The translations under genes were made by a program, and so were the position numbers. Shown one piece after another: positions 3,524-55,263 of a DNA stretch of 64,000 bases (positions are counted from its first letter, which is position 1; each line of letters starts with the position of its first letter). This stretch comes from an uncultured virus (IMG/VR IMGVR_UViG_3300010352_000682) (lineage: Duplodnaviria > Heunggongvirae > Uroviricota > Caudoviricetes): IMG/VR virus record IMGVR_UViG_3300010352_000682, one strand, 5' to 3'. The notes under the pieces were generated by a model. It made no database searches. It had not been told where the DNA came from and saw only the letters and a program-made list of their open reading frames with translations.

Positions 3524-4960
3524 TTATTGGTCATAGGATTCAATCGCACTAAGCATTGTATCAAATCCACGTTCTGACATATTAATAAATTGGAGAACCT
3601 TTTCATTCCATCCGGCAATTATATTTGTCTTATCTCCAATAAATTGTTGTGTGCCATATCCCTGCATATCAATAGCGTGTACCCAAAGATTTGGATTTAC
3701 TCGTTCTCTATACTGATTAACAATTGATTGGCAAATATGTTTATATCCTCCATACCTACCGCTATTTATCTCATTATCTGAAAGCAAAATAACTCGATCA
3801 ACATTGATATTGTTATTAAGTATTTGCTTAAATGGAAGAGAAATATCTGTTCCTCCACCATATGTGATAAATGAATCGGCGCTTTGAAGTATTCCGGAGC
3901 GTGAAGAACAGGTTTTTTGAAAAAGCCTTGTATCAAAAGTATAGATAATTGATTCATCACAAATTTTATTTGCAATAGCGGCAATAATACTAGCAATATC
4001 GCAACAACGAACATCAGAATTACCAGAAATTGTGTTACTCATACTTCCAGAAACATCTATTGCAATAAGTGTTTTTCCATGAATCTTTTCAATATTATCA
4101 CAACTTGCTGAAACAGCGTCCTCTAATACATCAATCACCTTATTAGAACATCCCATATTCTTAACAATGCGATATGCAGAATAAAACCTAAAAGGAAGTT
4201 GCCTTGAGCGCCTTACTTTTTCGGGATCTGAAAGGATAGAATAAACCTTATCAATATTATCTGGATGTACATTGATTATATTACGCAAATTACGCAGTAG
4301 TGCCATATAACCAACCTTTCCACTATCAATAAGTTCTTCCCACACTTCTTTTGTATTACCGCGAGCAGAAAGTTCAACTTCCCATGTATATGGAGTTTCA
4401 AGAGCATCATTGATAATTTTACCAAATAATTCATCCTGTTTTGAAGTATTTGGTACAGGATGTGTAAGTCTAAGAACATCCTTAAATTTAATTGATTTGT
4501 TATTGCCGCTATACTTTGCAAATTGGTATTCGTCAAAATTACCCATGCTGTGTGCCAATGCCTTTTTAAGTGCATTTGGAATTGGCTTACCATACATATT
4601 AAGATAACAAGCAAGAATCTCTGTTATATCATCTGCACGAAGCACAACACCGCTGACTGTGCGCCCTGTAAATGCTCTACCGTGCTTTGCTATAATAGAA
4701 GTAAGCACATGAGACACAGAGCGCAAATTCATTTCTCTACGCGCATACACAGCAAGATTTGAAATGAAATGAGCATCAATCTGTGCTATAGTCTCTGCTA
4801 ACTTAACTAACTCTGTGCTGTTATCACCATAATATTTTTGTTCATTAAACATAGTAGTGAGTACCATTGTTACAAGACGAAGTTTATCTTCCATCTTATA
4901 CGCGGCATAACCACATTTATTTGTGGTTGACATTGAATTTTCCTTATTAAACTTAGACAT
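3524..4960 (-). CDS. Ro60/Rsr TROVE-domain RNA-binding protein with C-terminal vWA domain
   Basis: MSKFN start, YARREMNLRSV, FDEYQFAKY, TWEVELS, GYMALLRNLRNI, SRQLPFRFYSAY, MIDAS motif DVSGSM, GGTD, SDNE. Confidence 0.93.
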   Translation of the reverse strand: MSKFNKENSMSTTNKCGYAAYKMEDKLRLVTMVLTTMFNEQKYYGDNSTELVKLAETIAQIDAHFISNLAVYARREMNLRSVSHVLTSIIAKHGRAFTGRTVSGVVLRADDITEILACYLNMYGKPIPNALKKALAHSMGNFDEYQFAKYSGNNKSIKFKDVLRLTHPVPNTSKQDELFGKIINDALETPYTWEVELSARGNTKEVWEELIDSGKVGYMALLRNLRNIINVHPDNIDKVYSILSDPEKVRRSRQLPFRFYSAYRIVKNMGCSNKVIDVLEDAVSASCDNIEKIHGKTLIAIDVSGSMSNTISGNSDVRCCDIASIIAAIANKICDESIIYTFDTRLFQKTCSSRSGILQSADSFITYGGGTDISLPFKQILNNNINVDRVILLSDNEINSGRYGGYKHICQSIVNQYRERVNPNLWVHAIDMQGYGTQQFIGDKTNIIAGWNEKVLQFINMSERGFDTMLSAIESYDQ

Positions 4961-46357: not shown

Positions 46358-46531
46358 TTATTGACCACGCCGTTTCCAAACTCTCTCTAAGGCATACCTG
46401 ACGCTATCTATGCAGTTATGTACTATAAAGCCGCCATTAATAGTAAAATTATGAAAATCTCTTACTTCCATATTATATACATCCTCTGTATTAGGAAGTT
46501 TCTTTATCTGTGTTATTTTTACTGATTTCAT
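46358..46531 (-). CDS. terL: Split intein C-part (39 aa) fused to terminase large subunit C-extein (18 aa)
   Basis: MKSVKITQIKKLPNTEDVYNMEVRDFHNFTINGGFIVHN|CIDSVRYALERVWKRRGQ: intein block F (VYN.EV...HNF), block G (VHN) and Cys+1; RBS GAGGT. Confidence 0.92.
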   Translation of the reverse strand: MKSVKITQIKKLPNTEDVYNMEVRDFHNFTINGGFIVHNCIDSVRYALERVWKRRGQ

Positions 46532-47159
46532 TTTTTAACCTCGGTAATCTAGGATATAATATGTCTGAACAATGTTTGCTACAGGTACTATTTTTATAAT
46601 ACTTATTACTTGTAAAGGTTTTACCACACACAGGACAGATTTTTTCAATATCATCTAAGTGGTTATCCCTGCGCCATTTAGATTTGCAAGCATTTGAACA
46701 AAATCTACTTCTTGTTTGCTTGCTTTTAAAGGGTTTATTACAACACTCACATATAAAATCTTTTTCTTGTAATGCATCATTACCGAGTTTTCCTATTTTA
46801 GCATAGTAATCATAATTATAATTTTCCTTACGAATTTTTGCTGCTGCTGGAATGACATTTTTTATCATGTTTTGCCTGTACCACTCACGTTGTTCATCTG
46901 TTAATTCTGCGCTATGTAATTTACGATGTTCAGCTCTTATCATAAGTTCAAGATTGGAAATATCATTATTGTCTTTATTGTGGTCTTTATGATGTACTTC
47001 ATATCCCTTTGGTATTTCACCATTGTATTGTTCCCATACACAACAATGTAATCTTTTGTGCAAGGTAGAACAAAGCCAGTAACCAGATTTTTTATCCTTT
47101 CTAAACTTATACCCGTTATAGTATACTAAATTAGTGTTTTCAATATATTGTATGGTCAT
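46491..47159 (-). CDS. Free-standing HNH homing endonuclease with zinc fingers
   Basis: RLH..VWE, IPKGYEVHHKDHNKDNNDISNL, CECC..F...FCSNAC, CPVCGK.F. Confidence 0.9.
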   Translation of the reverse strand: MTIQYIENTNLVYYNGYKFRKDKKSGYWLCSTLHKRLHCCVWEQYNGEIPKGYEVHHKDHNKDNNDISNLELMIRAEHRKLHSAELTDEQREWYRQNMIKNVIPAAAKIRKENYNYDYYAKIGKLGNDALQEKDFICECCNKPFKSKQTRSRFCSNACKSKWRRDNHLDDIEKICPVCGKTFTSNKYYKNSTCSKHCSDILYPRLPRLKNEISKNNTDKETS

Positions 47160-47217
47160 ATGGATATCTCCTTATTTAAGATATCCATATTATATCATAA
47201 ATATCTAACAGGGTCAA
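47158..47217 (-). promoter_or_regulatory. HNH promoter and start-sequestering hairpin
   Basis: TTGACC-17-TATAAT (47189-47217); 12-bp perfect stem at 47158-47190 covering the end of the AAGGAG RBS and the AT of the ATG. Confidence 0.75.
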
Positions 47218-48710
47218 TAGATATTTAAAATTTCATCGTCCGTAGTTAATTCACACATTTTTATCCAACCACGAGTTGTTAATACAGGATGTTCAGCGGT
47301 AGCTTTTATAGATGAACCATCTTCAAGAGTGATTTCATATATCTCTGCATCTTTTTGTGTCAATCTAACGTCAAAATAATCTGATATGGTAGACTTTTTA
47401 TTATCTTCGTCATAACAATAGACCTTACCAGTTTTACCAACTAGGTCTTTTATGGCTATATCTCCATCAACAGTATTAACTATGGTATCACCTGTTAGAC
47501 AGTGGTTATTTTCATCTGGATAATCACTGATTATTTCATCATCTTTGTTTCGTGTGTATTCATATGTTAAAAATTCATCAGCAGCAACAGGGCATCTTGC
47601 TAAGTCAATATAGATATGACTAAGAGATTGTAGCCATTTCATTGAATATTCAATACTTCCGGGTCCTTTTTCAGCACCCCTCGTATTACTGCCGTAAGAA
47701 CGAAAGTCTGAAATTGATTTAGGTTCCGCGCTATCAGCAGTAATTAGGTCTGAGCCAATGACACCTTTCTTTTCTACAAGGTCATTCCAGACTTCTATAT
47801 TCCCCTTTTTATTTACAACATATTCATCATAAATATAAAGGTCACGTCTAGCACTATCATAGTACACCTTAACCCACGCAAACGGGTCAGGATACCATCC
47901 CCAGTCAACGCCCATGTAGATTCTATCAAATGTTTTAATCTGTTCATCTGTGATGGGCTTTACTTTGACATTTTCAAAGACATTACCACCATCACCGATT
48001 GCTTCACCTAAATATTCGTGTGTATATGCACGTGGATTTATGGCTTTTAACCAATCAGCTTCATCATAAAATGATTCTCCTAACCACTCTCTTGGCACAT
48101 CTAAATAACTTGATTTAATACACAGTGTATCTGGTCTATCAACTAATATATCTTTGTTTGCCCAATTTGATGCAGAAATAGGTGGGTTAAATGAACGAAA
48201 ATCCCAAAATTTATCTCCACCACGCATAGTGGACTGTAATACCTTACGAATTTCAGCATCACCAGCATATTGATCTTCTTCCTCAAACCATGTAACTCCA
48301 ATATAACCAAAGGGTAATTTAATAGATTTAATTTTTCCCGGATCATCCAGACCAAAGAACATAATTTTTTGTCCTGTTGGTCTATAAATCATTTCCATTG
48401 GGTTAACTTTAAACTTATAAAGAGAATAAAGTCCATCAGTTTGATCAATACCCCATTGCATTTGACCATATACAGAATTTTTTAATGTGTTTCCCACTTT
48501 ACGAAATACACAAGCATGAACATTAGGATTATTTATTATTATGTGTGGTATTATTTCGCTAATAAAGGATGATTTAGTAGAACCACGTCCGCCATATAAT
48601 TTATAATGTGTATATTCGTGATTCATAATATCTCTATATAAATCATAATATTTTGGTATTATTTTTTCTGAACCATGAAATATTACTTCTTGTTTATTGG
48701 TTCTTATCAA
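47214..48710 (-). CDS. terL: Terminase large subunit (PBSX type) N-extein fused to split intein N-part (95 aa, 47217-47501)
   Basis: GGRGSTKS, WFEE, SFNPP, GVDWGW..DP, ADSAEPKSI, DENNH|CLTGDT (intein block A), TAEHP (block B); TTG start after AGGAG, downstream of the promoter. Confidence 0.93.
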   Translation of the reverse strand: MIRTNKQEVIFHGSEKIIPKYYDLYRDIMNHEYTHYKLYGGRGSTKSSFISEIIPHIIINNPNVHACVFRKVGNTLKNSVYGQMQWGIDQTDGLYSLYKFKVNPMEMIYRPTGQKIMFFGLDDPGKIKSIKLPFGYIGVTWFEEEDQYAGDAEIRKVLQSTMRGGDKFWDFRSFNPPISASNWANKDILVDRPDTLCIKSSYLDVPREWLGESFYDEADWLKAINPRAYTHEYLGEAIGDGGNVFENVKVKPITDEQIKTFDRIYMGVDWGWYPDPFAWVKVYYDSARRDLYIYDEYVVNKKGNIEVWNDLVEKKGVIGSDLITADSAEPKSISDFRSYGSNTRGAEKGPGSIEYSMKWLQSLSHIYIDLARCPVAADEFLTYEYTRNKDDEIISDYPDENNHCLTGDTIVNTVDGDIAIKDLVGKTGKVYCYDEDNKKSTISDYFDVRLTQKDAEIYEITLEDGSSIKATAEHPVLTTRGWIKMCELTTDDEILNIY

Positions 48711-48744
48711 AAATAAATCACTCCTAAATGCATTCTTTGTGCAT

Positions 48745-48773
48745 ATTATACAGCAAATATTATACATTGTCAA
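48745..48773 (-). promoter_or_regulatory. Consensus promoter for terL
   Basis: TTGACA-17-TATAAT. Confidence 0.75.
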
Positions 48774-48780
48774 TAAAAAA

Positions 48781-48823
48781 AATAAAAATTAAGGAGCCAC
48801 CTACTCGCAATAGGTAGCTCCTT
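48781..48823 (-). terminator. Terminator after tRNA cluster 2
   Basis: AAGGAGCTACCTA/TAGGTGGCTCCTT stem followed by a T-rich tract. Confidence 0.7.
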
Positions 48824-48853: not shown

Positions 48854-48929
48854 TGGTGGAAAATGTAGGAGTTGAACCTCTCTACCTGTTCCCAAAACAG
48901 GTGTGCAGAACCGTTACACTTCATTCTCC
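48854..48929 (-). tRNA. tRNA-Pro(TGG), atypical
   Basis: CCTGT-TTTGGGA-ACAGG; G1-C72, weak T stem, CCA. Confidence 0.75.
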
Positions 48930-48932
48930 GTG

Positions 48933-49007
48933 TGGCGGGGTAAATAGGGTTTGAACCTATGACACACTGGTTAACAGCCAGCCGCTCTTCCTCTGAGCTA
49001 CTACCCC
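48933..49007 (-). tRNA. tRNA-Asn(GTT)
   Basis: GCTGG-CTGTTAA-CCAGT, GCCA. Confidence 0.92.
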
Positions 49008-49010
49008 ATA

Positions 49011-49088
49011 TGGCGGCTACGGTGAGATTTGAACTCACGATGTTCTGATAGACAGTCAGACGCATTAAACCAACTATGCTACATAGCC
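49011..49088 (-). tRNA. tRNA-Asp(GTC)
   Basis: TCTGA-CTGTCTA-TCAGA, GCCA. Confidence 0.92.
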
Positions 49089-49155
49089 CTATTGTGGCAT
49101 TTTCATTTTTAGGATAAAAGAAAAATTGTTGAGCCACATTCAAAAGAAAACCATG

Positions 49156-49231
49156 TGGTGGAATATGTGGGACTTGAACCCACGACATCCTGATTGCAAA
49201 TCAGGTACTCTCCCATCTGAGTTAATACCCC
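49156..49231 (-). tRNA. tRNA-Ala(TGC)
   Basis: CCTGA-TTTGCAA-TCAGG, G3-U70, ACCA. Confidence 0.92.
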
Positions 49232-49233
49232 AT

Positions 49234-49309
49234 TGGTAGCCCACCTTGGTGTCGAACCAAGAACCTATCCCTTATCATGGGATTGCTCTACCTGTTGAGC
49301 TAGTGGGCT
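49234..49309 (-). tRNA. tRNA-Ile(GAT)
   Basis: ATCCC-ATGATAA-GGGAT, ACCA. Confidence 0.9.
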
Positions 49310-49316
49310 ATATTTC

Positions 49317-49378
49317 TGGTGAGCATTTCCTCTCACCACGCAGGGGTTTTCATCTGCTATGCGTCCGCAAACACATAC
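49317..49378 (-). ncRNA. Candidate three-hairpin RNA
   Basis: TATGTGTT/GACGCATA, GCAG/CTGC and TGGTGAG/CTCACCA hairpins between the two tRNA-Ile genes. Confidence 0.4.
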
Positions 49379-49386
49379 CTCTATTC

Positions 49387-49463
49387 TGGTGCTCCTAAGT
49401 GGAATCGAACCACTAACCTATCTCTTATAAGGGGATTGCTCTAACCAATTGAGCTATAGGAGC
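49387..49463 (-). tRNA. tRNA-Ile(TAT)
   Basis: ATCCC-CTTATAA-GAGAT, canonical D and T arms, ACCA. Confidence 0.85.
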
Positions 49464-49467
49464 ATGT

Positions 49468-49543
49468 TGGTGCCACGAGGAAGAATTTGACTTCTGACGC
49501 TAGGTTCTTCGGACCTACGTTCTACCTACTGAGCTATCGTGGC
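49468..49543 (-). tRNA. tRNA-Phe(GAA), degenerate
   Basis: TAGGT-CCGAAGA-ACCTA (C33); T loop TCAAATT; D-stem mismatch. Confidence 0.65.
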
Positions 49544-49546
49544 ATA

Positions 49547-49626
49547 TGGTGGAGATAAGGAGAGTCGAACTCCTGTCCAGAACTTAGCACATCGGCCTTT
49601 CGCCCTGTCGAAACCAATCTATCCCC
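49547..49626 (-). ncRNA. Minimal tmRNA (tRNA-like domain only)
   Basis: 5' GGGGATAGATTGGTTTCGAC and 3' GGACAGGAGTTCGACTCTCCTTATCTCCACCA match the ends of tmRNA; G3-U70; only 18 nt inside helix 2. Confidence 0.82.
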
Positions 49627-49691
49627 ATATAGTGCTCATGCATATTGCTCACATCTAGGCTTGTGAGCAATATGCGAGAATCAGCCGCATT

Positions 49692-50498
49692 TCAGCATGT
49701 GACCTCCTTCAAAAGCTCCGAGTTATCTTGTATGCGTTTATTTGCTATATCACAATATGTAGTGTCTAATTCAAACCCAATGTAGTTGCGTTTATTCAAT
49801 AACGCCATTTTTGCCGTAGTACCGCTGCCCATAAATGGGTCAAAAACTATATCACCCTCGTTACTCCAAGAAAGTATATGGTCTTGTGCTAACAACTCTG
49901 GGAACACAGCAGGATGCTCAGTTTTATCATCGCCAGAAGTAAATCCAACATTATATCTCCAAATATTTGACCTTAACTGCAATTTACCTTCTGCGTCACT
50001 TCTTTTTTCTACTTTTTGAATTCCATCTTTAGTAATTCTTCCTGTCTTAATTCCACCTTTTGTTCTTGGTTTTCCGTTATCCAATCTATGTACTGTTTTA
50101 ATTTTTCCTTTTGTAAAAACAAACATATATTCAAACGTCTGCCAATAGCAATTGTTGCTTCCGCACGCTCCTGTTCCATTCTTTTCGTAAATCATAGTGT
50201 CGTGAAGGTTGAACCCAATTTCCTTAAAAAATAACGCTTGGCGGAACGATGTCCCCGTTTCGCTTCCTTTAATTGTTGCGTCAGCCACTATCCAAACCAC
50301 TACGCCGCCTTGCTTTGTTACTCGATATAATTCTTTTGCTATATCTTGAAACTTCTCAAAAGACCACTGTGCAATATTTCCGTTATATGTGCGTAGATTA
50401 TCGTATGGCGGCGAAGTAATCGTCAAATCAATACATTCATCATCTAATTGCTTCATTCCGTCAAGACAATCCATATTATAAATTTTATTTAATTCCAT
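49692..50498 (-). CDS. DNA methyltransferase, N4-C/N6-A beta class
   Basis: TSPPYDN, HPAVFP, DPFMGSGTT. Confidence 0.92.
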   Translation of the reverse strand: MELNKIYNMDCLDGMKQLDDECIDLTITSPPYDNLRTYNGNIAQWSFEKFQDIAKELYRVTKQGGVVVWIVADATIKGSETGTSFRQALFFKEIGFNLHDTMIYEKNGTGACGSNNCYWQTFEYMFVFTKGKIKTVHRLDNGKPRTKGGIKTGRITKDGIQKVEKRSDAEGKLQLRSNIWRYNVGFTSGDDKTEHPAVFPELLAQDHILSWSNEGDIVFDPFMGSGTTAKMALLNKRNYIGFELDTTYCDIANKRIQDNSELLKEVTC

Positions 50499-52456: not shown

Positions 52457-52531
52457 TGGTACTCATACAAGGACTCGAACCCTGATTATTGGGGTAGAAA
52501 CCCAAAGTCCTATCCATTGAACGATATGAGC
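52457..52531 (-). tRNA. tRNA-Arg(TCT)
   Basis: TTGGG-TTTCTAC-CCCAA, A20, ACCA. Confidence 0.9.
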
Positions 52532-52654
52532 ATATAAAGATGTTTTTATCTTTCTTGGCAAGGTATCACATCAAACTTGCCGTTTTTCAACCTCAGACTG
52601 GTCAGGTTTACTTTCTAAAATTATATTAACGTAAACACTCTATTAATATAAAGT

Positions 52655-52730
52655 TGGCGCGGCCTAAAGGACTCGAACCTTTATCCTACAGTTTTGGAGA
52701 CTGGCATTTTTCCAGTTAAACTAAGTCCGC
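52655..52730 (-). tRNA. tRNA-Trp(CCA)
   Basis: CAGT-CTCCAAA-ACTG, GCCA. Confidence 0.88.
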
Positions 52731-52738
52731 ATATTTTC

Positions 52739-52799
52739 TAGGCGCTTTTTGAATAATCACATTCATTTTATGTAGATAAAAAATTGCTGTAAGCGCCTA
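52739..52799 (-). ncRNA. Candidate three-way-junction RNA with ACAGCAA strand
   Basis: 9-bp TAGGCGCTT/AAGCGCCTA closing stem plus two internal hairpins. Confidence 0.5.
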
Positions 52800-52803
52800 T
52801 TTT

Positions 52804-52882
52804 TGGAGGTAATGGCGGGATTCGAACCCACGAATACTGATTTTGCAGACCAGCGCCTTAGACCAGTCTTGGCTACATTACC
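52804..52882 (-). tRNA. tRNA-Cys(GCA)
   Basis: CTGGT-CTGCAAA-ATCAG, U73. Confidence 0.9.
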
Positions 52883-52883
52883 T

Positions 52884-52976
52884 TGGCGCGAGATATAGGA
52901 TTTGAACCTATACACACTTTTAATGTTACTGATGGATTAGCAATCCATTCCCTTACCAGATTAGGGTTAATCTCGC
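52884..52976 (-). tRNA. tRNA-Ser(GCT)
   Basis: ATGGA-TTGCTAA-TCCAT, long variable arm, G73. Confidence 0.9.
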
Positions 52977-52982
52977 ATATAG

Positions 52983-53069
52983 TGGTGGGTAAGGTTGGAC
53001 TCGAACCAACAGTGTTTCTAATGTCACGGTTTTACAGACCGCTTTCTTCACCAATTTGAATACTTGCCC
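52983..53069 (-). tRNA. tRNA-Tyr(GTA)
   Basis: GCGGT-CTGTAAA-ACCGT, long variable arm. Confidence 0.9.
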
Positions 53070-53094
53070 ATAAGTAAAGTGGTTAATTAAATAA

Positions 53095-53163
53095 GCGTGT
53101 ACCCCTGACGGATTCTAACCATCTTTACCACAAACATCAACGTCAATGTTTAGCGGCACACGC
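53095..53163 (-). ncRNA. tRNA-like RNA lacking D arm and CCA
   Basis: GCGTGTGCC/GGTACACGC closing stem, AAACATT/GATGTTT hairpin, T-arm-like GATGG-TTAGAAT-CCGTC. Confidence 0.5.
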
Positions 53164-53164
53164 A

Positions 53165-53252
53165 TGGCGCAAACGGTAGGATTTGAACCCACATGCCCTT
53201 TCAGACAATCAGTTTTCAGGACTGACACCTTTACCAACTCGGTCACGTTTGC
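53165..53252 (-). tRNA. tRNA-Ser(TGA), C33
   Basis: TCAGT-CCTGAAA-ACTGA, long variable arm, G73. Confidence 0.88.
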
Positions 53253-53259
53253 ATATAAA

Positions 53260-53335
53260 TGGTACTCTGTGTGGGACTCGAACCCACATCATAAGATTGA
53301 AAATCTTATATCTTAACCAGTTTGACTAACAGAGC
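53260..53335 (-). tRNA. tRNA-Glu(TTC)
   Basis: TAAGA-TTTTCAA-TCTTA, ACCA. Confidence 0.9.
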
Positions 53336-53437
53336 ATATAATGCCGCACTAAAAAACTTAGTATTAAGACGTCCTTACTAAGAAACTCTATGCGATTAGT
53401 TTTTTATGGTTCCGCTTCCTAGCGGTTTCCTTGAAAA

Positions 53438-53514
53438 TGGAGTACCATAAGGGATTTGAACCCTTACTAATAGAGTGGAGGTCTATTGTGCTTGCCATTA
53501 AACACTAATGGTAC
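53438..53514 (-). tRNA. tRNA-Gly(TCC), C33
   Basis: ATAGA-CCTCCAC-TCTAT, U73. Confidence 0.85.
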
Positions 53515-53517
53515 ATA

Positions 53518-53593
53518 TGGAGCTACCAAGAGGACTTGAACCCCCGACCCGCTGATTACAAAACAGCAGCTCTACCAACTGAGCTATGGTAGC
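53518..53593 (-). tRNA. tRNA-Thr(TGT)
   Basis: GCTG-T-TTTGTAA-T-CAGC, canonical D and T arms. Confidence 0.9.
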
Positions 53594-53612
53594 ATTTCTT
53601 ATGTGTGTATAT

Positions 53613-53641
53613 AATATACCACCATTAATATGAGAAGTCAA
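53613..53641 (-). promoter_or_regulatory. Promoter of tRNA cluster 3
   Basis: TTGACT-17-TATATT with TG extension. Confidence 0.65.
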
Positions 53642-53861: not shown

Positions 53862-53896
53862 GGGAGCGCTAGGCTGGTGGGGGTGCTCCCCCCTTC

Positions 53897-54085
53897 CCGG
53901 TTTCCTTCCCGGTTTCCTTCCCGGTTTCCTTCCCGGTTTCCTTCCCGGTTTCCTTCCCGGTTTCCTTCCCGGTTTCCTTCCTCTGTTCGTCCTTCCTCTG
54001 TTCGTCCTTCCTCTGTTCGTCCTTCCTCTGTTCGTCCTTCCTCTGTTCGTCCTTCCTCTGTTCGTCCTTCCTCTGTTCGTCCTTC
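53897..54085. repeat. Adjacent perfect tandem repeats: 7 x CCGGTTTCCTTC and 7 x CTCTGTTCGTCCTTC
   Basis: 53897-53980 (84 bp) and 53981-54085 (105 bp). Confidence 0.95.
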
Positions 54086-54342
54086 CTCTCCCCGTGTTCG
54101 TCATTTTGCACAGATTTTTCACTCGATAGTTATGCAATAGTACCAATGAATAGTATGCACAATAGGTGTATAAAAATACATAGGTGTTATAACGCGCTAT
54201 AATGCGCTGTATTGCATTATATCTACTGCCGTATAATTTGACATGGTAATATATAAACGCGCTCATACGTGGCTACAGAGCGCTACAGTGACATATAATA
54301 GGTATAATAAATGCCCACGTCATATTAAACGTGGGCAAATAG

Positions 54343-54591: not shown

Positions 54592-55263
54592 TTACTTTGT
54601 TACTACTGCCGCCGGGGCAGATGTTTTGACTTCTGTCGCCTTGGTAATTGGGGCCGGGCCGGTAACCTTGCTATCGGCCTTGATTTTATCGGCGGCTTTT
54701 TCGGCGGCCGTCTCTTTTCGTGTTTCAACCTTGCTTGTTTTGGCATGATGGGAGCGGCCCTTTTCAGTCGGTACTTTCGGCTCCCCGCTATCGCTCTTGG
54801 CCGTGGCGCTCTTGGCCGTGGCGCTCTTGGCCGTGGCGCTCTTGGCCGTGGCGCTCTTGGCCGTGGCGCTCTTGGCCGTGGCGCTCTTGGCCGTGGCGCT
54901 CTTGGCCGTGGCGCTCTTGGCCGTGGCATTGGCCTTGACCGTGGGCGTGGGCGTGGGCTGTTCTTTTGCAAAGGCCTGAGCGGCTTTGTTTCTATCGGCC
55001 CGGACTTGCTTGTAGTATTCGTGATAGTAGCGCGTGCCTTGATCGCTAATTGTCTGAATTAAAGTCTTTTCGGGCCGGCTCATATTGTCGCGCTCAAGCG
55101 TGGCCAAAACTGCCTTTACATCTGCCAAGGGGACATAGCTCTTTTTACCAAATAAATCAGTAAGGAGCGGCTCCACCTTTTCACAAATTGCAATGAGCTT
55201 TTTGTTGTCGGTCAAGCTCTTTTGTTCCGCCGCGATCTCCGTCCAAAATCTTTTGTCTGCCAT
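54592..55263 (-). CDS. Lys/Ala/Thr-rich protein with (ATAKS)9 repeat and histone-H1-like tail
   Basis: RBS GAGGT; 9 x 15-bp repeat at 54793-54927; terminator hairpin near 54548-54585. Confidence 0.75.
   Translation of the reverse strand: MADKRFWTEIAAEQKSLTDNKKLIAICEKVEPLLTDLFGKKSYVPLADVKAVLATLERDNMSRPEKTLIQTISDQGTRYYHEYYKQVRADRNKAAQAFAKEQPTPTPTVKANATAKSATAKSATAKSATAKSATAKSATAKSATAKSATAKSATAKSDSGEPKVPTEKGRSHHAKTSKVETRKETAAEKAADKIKADSKVTGPAPITKATEVKTSAPAAVVTK

What the first reader, a model, noticed from the sequence alone, without database searches (positions are those of the whole stretch)
49547..49626. 80-nt mini-tmRNA: tRNA-like domain without tag reading frame or pseudoknots
Seen: GGGGAUA/UAUCUCC acceptor with G3-U70, A73 and CCA; stemless D loop GAUUGGUUUCGAC; helix 2 CAGGGC/GUUCUG; short GAC linker; canonical T arm. 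Only 18 nt (GAAAGGCCGAUGUGCUAA, ending in UAA) lie where tmRNA has roughly 250-300 nt. Known: these are the AlaRS, EF-Tu and SmpB determinants of tmRNA, and tag-less tmRNAs are known from some mitochondria. Inference: an SmpB sponge or trans-translation inhibitor, or a rescue RNA that alanylates stalled chains without adding a degradation tag. I know of no described phage example.
Basis: partly seen in the sequence, partly recalled or inferred. Interest (0 to 1): 0.88.

Follow-up and report, generated by a model that had tools for sequence, protein, structure and literature searches.

The report
Phage tag-less mini-tmRNA, DS6A family
A wastewater phage carries, among its tRNA genes, a real 80-base gene for only the alanine-carrying, tRNA-like end of the bacterial ribosome-rescue RNA (tmRNA); one such phage RNA was already published, but the form is widespread and strongly conserved, and probably competes with the host's rescue-and-tag system.

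Summary
Confirmed, on the minus strand (49626 to 49547): Rfam tmRNA 63.8 bits, 18 nt replacing 312 model positions. Not an assembly collapse: contigs from two further studies span it without a joint. Not unprecedented: mycobacteriophage DS6A's 'TLD-only' tmRNA is published and reported to inhibit E. coli tmRNA. A model built without either scores DS6A 63 and this gene 50-60 bits: one family of about 81 nt, with over 100 distinct viral members, covarying helices and a small capping hairpin. With those positions left out of the search patterns, G3-U70/A73 held in 88 of 88 well-paired hits and the SmpB-contact G19/A334 in 92 of 93. None of 50 carriers encodes SmpB. Unannotated members sit in four cultured Streptomyces phages and inside the stress-induced Anabaena PCC 7120 trn operon. 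Best reading: an alanylated RNA using host SmpB and EF-Tu to enter non-stop ribosomes, adding Ala without tag or stop codon, so lowering ssrA tagging (inferred, about 0.55). No expression evidence. This scan reported this kind before on other DNA, and the Nostoc operon copy too.

The parts
49547..49626 (-). Tag-less mini-tmRNA gene, 80 nt
   Evidence: RF00023 63.8 bits; family model R1 50.5 bits with filters, 60.3 without
49620..49626 (-). Acceptor stem 5' strand GGGGAUA; G3 at 49624
   Evidence: sequence; alignment
49608..49619 (-). Stemless D loop; GG at 49615-49614; equivalents of E. coli U17, C18, G19, A20 at 49611-49608
   Evidence: SmpB contacts named in PMC8363625; E. coli ssrA fetched for numbering
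49602..49607 (-). Helix P2a 5' strand CAGGGC
   Evidence: covariation in family
49584..49601 (-). 18-nt insert: A-rich loop GAAA, 3-bp capping hairpin (49597-49586), AA; replaces pseudoknots and tag frame
   Evidence: hairpin covaries in family
49578..49583 (-). Helix P2a 3' strand GUUCUG
49575..49577 (-). GAC connector; A at 49576 is the equivalent of E. coli A334
   Evidence: A kept in 92 of 93
49558..49574 (-). T arm, 5 bp, loop UUCGACU
49547..49557 (-). Acceptor 3' strand UAUCUCC (U70 at 49553), discriminator A73 (49550), encoded CCA
48854..49543 (-). Downstream tRNA cluster in the same orientation (degenerate Phe-GAA 3 nt after the CCA, then Ile-TAT, Ile-GAT, Ala-TGC, Asp, Asn, Pro)
48791..48823 (-). 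Terminator-like 15-pair hairpin with U-rich tail closing the cluster
   Evidence: consensus match only
49640..49675 (.). Perfect 14-bp hairpin between the methyltransferase stop and the mini-tmRNA 5' end; role unknown
   Evidence: read from the sequence
52457..53641 (-). Upstream cluster of 9 tRNA genes with a sigma-70-like promoter (53641-53613); possible start of the transcript
   Evidence: promoter count in the region is at chance level (13 found, 12.6 expected), so weak

Best explanation
The gene is a member of the DS6A-type family of tag-less (TLD-only) tmRNAs. It is co-transcribed with the phage tRNAs and matured like a tRNA (inferred), charged with alanine by host AlaRS through G3-U70 and A73 (inferred from identity rules), bound by host SmpB at the D loop and GAC connector and by EF-Tu, and delivered to the empty A site of ribosomes stalled on non-stop mRNA. 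It accepts the nascent chain on its alanine but offers no resume codon, tag or stop codon, so the chain gets one or more untemplated alanines and must be released by another route (host tmRNA, an Arf-type factor, or drop-off). By using up SmpB and stalled ribosomes it lowers host ssrA tagging during infection. Shown here: sequence, structure, family, selection on the charging and SmpB-contact positions, absence of a phage SmpB. Inferred: expression, charging, ribosome entry, net effect.
For: Alanine identity is under selection: with the acceptor left out of the pattern, 88 of 92 distinct hits had a 7/7 acceptor and all 88 had G1-C72, G2-C71, G3-U70 and A73 while pairs 4-7 covary. SmpB contacts are under selection: with D loop and connector left out of the pattern, equivalents of U17/C18/G19/A20/A334 were kept in 90/83/92/86/92 of 93 distinct members while neighbouring loop positions vary (contacts from PMC8363625 passages). 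Structure covaries: 97.1% of 1122 cells paired, double changes in all four helices, 0 of 500 shuffles and no slid control near it. SmpB found in 0 of 50 carrier records (0 of 17 at least 90% complete) and not in the nearest record G001, so the host protein is needed. All 5 cellular carriers tested also hold a full-length tmRNA: accessory, not a replacement. Published: the DS6A form inhibits E. coli tmRNA (PMC11915505, citing Mao 2009); a TLD fragment with SmpB makes polyalanine in vitro without mRNA (PMC3929946 passage, citing Shimizu and Ueda 2006).
Against: No expression evidence: the two RNA runs laid gave only 21-34-nt T-arm pieces with loose ends, i.e. other organisms' tmRNA. Hudson 2014 says inhibition occurred whether or not the RNA was chargeable, so inhibition in E. 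coli needs no ribosome entry. The minimum-energy fold of this copy is an alternative one, 2.4 kcal/mol better than the TLD fold (family median 1.1; TLD is the minimum in 16 of 109). One relative has an A-C mismatch in P2a (49579, one contig). G3-U70 could be kept only because charging and EF-Tu binding stabilise the RNA. Carriers seldom bring release machinery (RF-1 domain 2 of 23, PTH2 0 of 23), so how the chain is released is open. Three cyanobacterial array copies look degenerate.
Confidence: 0.55

Rival explanations
1. Pure SmpB sponge: the RNA binds and titrates host SmpB, which destabilises or disables host tmRNA; charging and ribosome entry are incidental.
For: SmpB contacts kept; no phage SmpB; inhibition reported whether or not chargeable (PMC4131195).
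Against: G3-U70 and A73 in 88 of 88 when unconstrained, although a Watson-Crick pair would fold as well; the length and distal hairpin of the P2 arm are conserved beyond the SmpB footprint.
Confidence: 0.15
2. Helper, not inhibitor: a cheap tag-free rescue RNA that keeps ribosomes cycling when tmRNA, tRNA or mRNA are damaged, like the CDS-less mitochondrial and plastid tmRNAs.
For: A member lies inside the Anabaena PCC 7120 trn operon, which is induced 100-1000-fold by ribosome-targeting antibiotics together with rtcB (PMC8421152 sections 19, 21 and passages); same position in other cyanobacterial arrays; CDS-less organellar tmRNAs exist.
Against: It has no stop codon and carriers rarely encode release factors; the only in vivo report is inhibition; some array copies have lost the UUCGAC motif or the T loop, as passengers in arrays do.
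Confidence: 0.15
3. Decoy against host defence systems or toxins that bind or cut tmRNA or tRNA (e.g. the SmpB-like domains predicted in CoCoNuT systems).
For: CoCoNuTs carry SmpB-like OB folds and RNases predicted to act on tmRNA (PMC10542128 passages); this phage also encodes Ro60/TROVE and many tRNAs.
Against: No direct evidence; no anticodon loop to cut; TROVE in only 6 of 23 carriers; alanine identity would not be required.
Confidence: 0.1
4. Non-functional: assembly collapse, decaying ssrA, or an attachment-site remnant.
Against: Contigs of two further studies span the gene with no joint; narrow size range, 61 of 83 at 81-83 nt; compensatory changes; both ends intact; tyrosine integrase in 2 of 23 carriers, in none of 110 neighbouring proteins and none of 70 window ORFs; same form in cultured phages.
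Confidence: 0.03

Closest known systems
TLD-only (CDS-less) tmRNA of mycobacteriophage DS6A (NC_023744 28478-28560; PMC4131195, PMC11915505; Mao et al. 2009 as cited there)
   Same: Standard gene order, 83 vs 80 nt, G3-U70, A73, stemless D loop, P2a, A-rich loop plus 3-bp capping hairpin, T arm; both match model R1 built without them (63.0 and 50.5 bits).
   Different: This copy encodes CCA, has the canonical GGAC (DS6A GCAC) and UUCGAC, a GCCGAUGUGC rather than CCGCACGCGG cap, and lies in a tRNA cluster; DS6A's stands alone.
Standard one-piece bacterial tmRNA (RF00023)
   Same: Whole tRNA-like domain, P2a and the A-rich loop that follows it (E. coli, cyanobacterial and other full genes compared).
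   Different: No pseudoknots, resume codon, tag frame or stop codon; cannot complete trans-translation.
CDS-less organellar tmRNAs (jakobid and oomycete mitochondria; ~65-bp Mallomonadaceae plastid genes; PMC11915505)
   Same: Tag-less, relies on an SmpB encoded elsewhere.
   Different: Those are the organelle's only tmRNA; this one is accessory beside a host full-length tmRNA. RF00023 outscored the other clan members here.
RqcH/RqcP alanine tailing (RQC; title seen in reference list of PMC8012679; mechanism recalled)
   Same: Possible product: untemplated C-terminal alanines.
   Different: RQC uses tRNA-Ala on split 50S subunits; this would use SmpB on 70S. Functional analogy only.

Membership tests
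DS6A-type TLD-only tmRNA | Intact tRNA-like domain in standard order with both ends | tested here: met
   RF00023 positions 1-374 matched, 63.8 bits
DS6A-type TLD-only tmRNA | No tag reading frame or pseudoknots; about 80 nt | tested here: met
   18 nt for 312 model positions; stop triplet not conserved, 21 of 109
DS6A-type TLD-only tmRNA | Homology with DS6A including the internal hairpin | tested here: met
   Model R1 from 51 other members scores DS6A 63.0 and the window 50.5-60.3 bits, best window tRNA 23.8
DS6A-type TLD-only tmRNA | Inhibits host tmRNA when expressed | not testable with these tools
   reported for the DS6A form only
tmRNA (trans-translation competent) | Alanine identity G3-U70, A73 | tested here: met
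   family 88 of 88
tmRNA (trans-translation competent) | SmpB-contact residues U17, C18, G19, A334 | tested here: met
   present in the window copy; 90, 83, 92, 92 of 93 in the family
tmRNA (trans-translation competent) | mRNA-like domain with resume codon, tag and stop | tested here: not met
tmRNA (trans-translation competent) | Expressed, processed, alanylated, SmpB-bound | tested here: inconclusive
   RNA-run contigs gave no cover beyond the T arm; binding and charging not testable here
Permuted two-piece tmRNA | 3' acceptor piece precedes the 5' GGGG piece | tested here: not met
   standard order; RF04321 only 16.6 bits
tRNA-Ala | D stem and anticodon arm | tested here: not met
   no ARAGORN call; a separate tRNA-Ala(TGC) lies at 49156-49231
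attP fragment of ssrA | 3' fragment only, beside an integrase | tested here: not met
   both ends present; no integrase among 70 window ORFs or in G001

The most novel reading that the evidence does not exclude
These RNAs are a widespread, unannotated class of tag-less ribosome-rescue RNA that uses host SmpB to write untemplated alanine tails on intact 70S ribosomes, deployed by phages and by stress-induced bacterial tRNA operons such as the Anabaena trn operon: a route distinct from trans-translation, Arf factors and RQC, and a tractable model for what CDS-less organellar tmRNAs do.
Probability: 0.25. Interest if true: 0.85.

Novelty: new member of a known kind. Interest (0 to 1): 0.52.

Why it matters
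The form is published from one phage and treated as an oddity. Invariant alanine identity suggests more than a sponge. Members in four cultured Streptomyces phages and in the genetically tractable Anabaena trn operon make testable a question that PMC11915505 leaves open: what a tmRNA without a tag frame does. If it inhibits trans-translation it is a natural RNA inhibitor of an antibiotic target pathway.

Tried and rejected
Whole genome not held; nearest record G001 shares 91% of words and has the identical gene but may be the same source, so not counted as support. BLAST of the 80-mer against cultured phages found only T-arm matches; four opened were a full-length tmRNA (Lactococcus AM4), two permuted tmRNAs (S-CAM3, S-SSM7) and a tRNA-Ala (S-SRM01). 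The first scan fixed U70/A73 in its pattern and my filter fixed GGG, so its 83 of 83 is circular and not used; 8 of its distinct hits were dropped as 3' fragments or permuted genes. Mini-tag reading of the insert (frame 1 ERPMC-stop) rejected: not conserved, and helix 2 points out of the ribosome. Sequence-specific role for the cap loop rejected: loops are mostly generic stable types (YNMG 32, other CNNG 15, GNRA 9 of 109; class names recalled). D-loop pairing with the A-rich segment as a switch: no covariation seen by eye, not pursued. Dedicated protein partner: no common neighbour among 110 flanking proteins, one largest ORF per side; TROVE 6 of 23, PTH2 0 of 23, RF-1 domain 2 of 23, SmpB 0 of 50; no control set of non-carrier phages. 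RNA runs X16 and X18: no cover beyond the T arm, no evidence either way. A too-tight subtype pattern found 0 loci, a looser one 8. Cyanobacterial survey: 2 of 151 genomes, but only 30 candidates per genome were scored, so a lower bound. Genome scan: 17 of 120 hits, picked by eye, scored 45-86 bits; the other 103 were not scored and look mostly like 3' ends of full tmRNAs. Look-alike earlier findings by place were unrelated.

Full report
Observation. Rfam RF00023 matches it over model positions 1-374 at 63.8 bits with 18 nt in place of 312 positions; ARAGORN lists 20 tRNAs in the window and misses it. Folding energy alone is unremarkable (z = -0.35), and the minimum-energy fold pairs the D loop with the insert, 2.4 kcal/mol better than the TLD fold; such models ignore SmpB and tertiary contacts (established knowledge), but it is a caveat.

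Not an artefact. Twenty runs in 13 studies hold part of the stretch, mostly wastewater and sludge. Leaving out the two possible source runs, contigs in X3 (49263-50200) and X5 (49366-49881), from two studies, span the gene with no joint. Each differs from the window at 23 places; inside the gene there is one neutral T-loop change in both and one P2a mismatch in X5 only. The RNA runs X16 and X18 cover only 21-34 nt of the T arm with loose ends, so expression is not shown.

Setting. The window is a tailed phage with portal, head, tail, polymerase and helicase genes; none of 70 ORFs scanned matched an integrase. It encodes Ro60/TROVE. The gene lies 65 nt after a methyltransferase stop and 3 nt before a degenerate tRNA-Phe, first in a same-strand tRNA cluster closed by a 15-pair terminator-like hairpin. 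A Bacillota host is a weak inference from 34% GC and from three Bacillota MAG contigs with the same acceptor stem.

Family. Pooled with a second scan and four cultured phages there are 112 distinct members; a third scan gave 94 distinct sequences, partly overlapping. On a 51-member subset chosen for equal D-loop length, 97.1% of 1122 cells pair, all four helices including the distal 3-bp hairpin show double changes, and neither 500 shuffles nor slid controls approach this (relatedness inflates the shuffle test). Anchored counts on 109 members give 95-100% pairing at the first four variable P2a pairs against 43-51% shuffled. Compared with full-length genes, the RNA is TLD plus P2a plus the following A-rich loop plus a short capped stem. 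In 80 of 117 sampled viral tmRNA 3' ends (those with full flanks), a rough classification gave 5 mini, 37 full-length, 23 permuted, 15 other. A tRNA lies within 1 kb for only 20 of 78 members with enough flank, so array location is not defining.

Selection on function. Because the first pattern fixed the acceptor, I repeated the scan without it: 88 of 92 distinct hits had a fully paired acceptor and all 88 had G1-C72, G2-C71, G3-U70 and A73, with pairs 4-7 covarying; CCA is encoded in 26 of 88. The four others were two permuted-gene pieces, one with a different 3' end and one 6/7 acceptor. I then left the D loop and connector out: of 94 sequences given, 93 matched the model, and the equivalents of U17, C18, G19, A20 and A334 were kept in 90, 83, 92, 86 and 92 (two tRNA matches and two reference rows dropped). 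Guyomar 2021 (PMC8363625, passages) names U17, A334, C18 and G19 as SmpB contacts and says G19C abolishes trans-translation. SmpB was found in 0 of 50 carrier records and not in G001. One of 23 carriers also has a full-length tmRNA (G006); 5 of 5 cellular carriers do.

Prior art. Hudson 2014 (PMC4131195, passages) lists DS6A as 'TLD only' and says a similar molecule, chargeable or not, strongly inhibits tmRNA, perhaps by titrating SmpB. Nawrocki 2025 (PMC11915505, first fifth of the text and passages) repeats this and adds CDS-less plastid genes. Mao 2009 itself is not held. I located the DS6A gene: 83 nt with the family's hairpin; model R1, built without it or the window, scores it 63.0 bits and the window 50.5, or 60.3 unfiltered. 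So this is a new member of a published kind. Searches found no paper describing the form as a widespread family; the library lacks most subscription journals. Three papers citing Mao 2009 (passages) and three on phage tmRNA or defence (passages) did not describe it. This scan noted the kind at least eight times on other DNA; I had the DS6A lead before that call.

Tractable members. Unannotated full members lie in the tRNA regions of Streptomyces phages LuckySocke, Shaeky, BRock and pSt2308. A member lies between trnE-UUC and trnY in the trn operon of Nostoc/Anabaena PCC 7120 plasmid delta (NC_003273.1 51736-51819; 48.7 bits; G3-U70 and A73 intact, connector GGAU). That operon is one transcript induced 100-1000-fold by ribosome-targeting antibiotics, co-regulated with rtcB (PMC8421152, sections 19 and 21 and passages). 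Neither that paper's main text, its supplement as held (cut when stored), nor PMC10272220's main text contains tmRNA, ssrA or smpB. Figures are not held and the 2012 paper on the cluster was not read, so I cannot exclude that the element was drawn there, or is one of three undetected 'pseudogenes'; 24 ARAGORN calls plus two tRNAs seen by eye give 26 without it, which suggests it is not counted. Against a strong role: three other cyanobacterial array copies have lost UUCGAC or gained a T-loop insertion. An earlier scan note saw such a gene in a related Nostoc operon.

Mechanism. A sponge needs SmpB contacts but not a G-U wobble at 3-70; its invariance argues that the charged form matters. A TLD fragment with SmpB supports polyalanine synthesis without mRNA in vitro (PMC3929946, passages). 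I therefore favour an alanylated competitor that enters non-stop ribosomes, adds alanine without tag or stop codon and lowers host tagging (0.55), over a pure sponge (0.15), a helper in rescue (0.15), a defence decoy (0.10) or decay (0.03). Release of the chain is unexplained: carriers seldom encode an RF-1 domain (2 of 23) or PTH2 (0 of 23). Alanine tails can themselves signal proteolysis (title in a reference list), so 'tag-less' need not mean 'protective'. All steps after transcription are inferred.

Verdict. The undocumented breadth, the selection pattern and the tractable hosts justify about 0.5.

Noticed in passing
L369:5737-5820 (NC_003273.1 51736-51819, minus): Family member inside the stress-induced trn operon of Anabaena/Nostoc PCC 7120, unmentioned in the two operon papers searched; similar copies at the same place in other cyanobacterial arrays (L269, L372, L373, L370), some degenerate; a Nostoc sp. 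MS1 plasmid hit was not opened.
   Followed up: partly
window 49471-49543 (-): Degenerate tRNA-Phe(GAA), 42.6 bits, missed by ARAGORN; relatives in X3 and X5 differ at four places, which by eye restore D- and T-stem pairs and the T loop.
   Followed up: partly
window 49387-49463 (-): tRNA-Ile with unmodified-type TAT anticodon, rare in bacteria (recalled); also in Bacillota MAG arrays L293, L314, L323.
   Followed up: no
window 46358-48773 (-): Terminase large subunit ends in an intein-like segment (CLTGD...), followed by an HNH ORF and a short ORF ending ...HN-CIDSVRY: by eye an intein interrupted or split across three ORFs.
   Followed up: no
window 3524-4960 (-): Ro60/TROVE protein; TROVE also in 3 of 4 Streptomyces carrier phages. 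No Y RNA at gathering score in the window.
   Followed up: partly
window 53890-54100 and 54800-54960: Tandem repeat arrays: about 15-nt and 12-nt units upstream of the tRNA promoter, and an ATAKS-repeat in a 223-aa basic ORF; possibly near the genome end.
   Followed up: no
window 49085-49155, 49310-49386, 52533-52654, 53070-53164, 53336-53437: Intergenic spacers among the tRNAs, some with paired motifs (e.g. 52745-52800); could hide further small RNAs; no Rfam hit at gathering score.
   Followed up: no
G006:C1:46486-46567 and 77588-77979; G019 two copies: One viral record holds both a mini and a full-length tmRNA; another holds two minis.
   Followed up: no
L089, L113, L071: Shorter 64-72-nt members lacking the capping hairpin; possibly separate deletions.
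   Followed up: no
L510-L589: Permuted two-piece tmRNAs make up about 23 of 80 sampled viral tmRNA 3' ends (rough classification).
   Followed up: no
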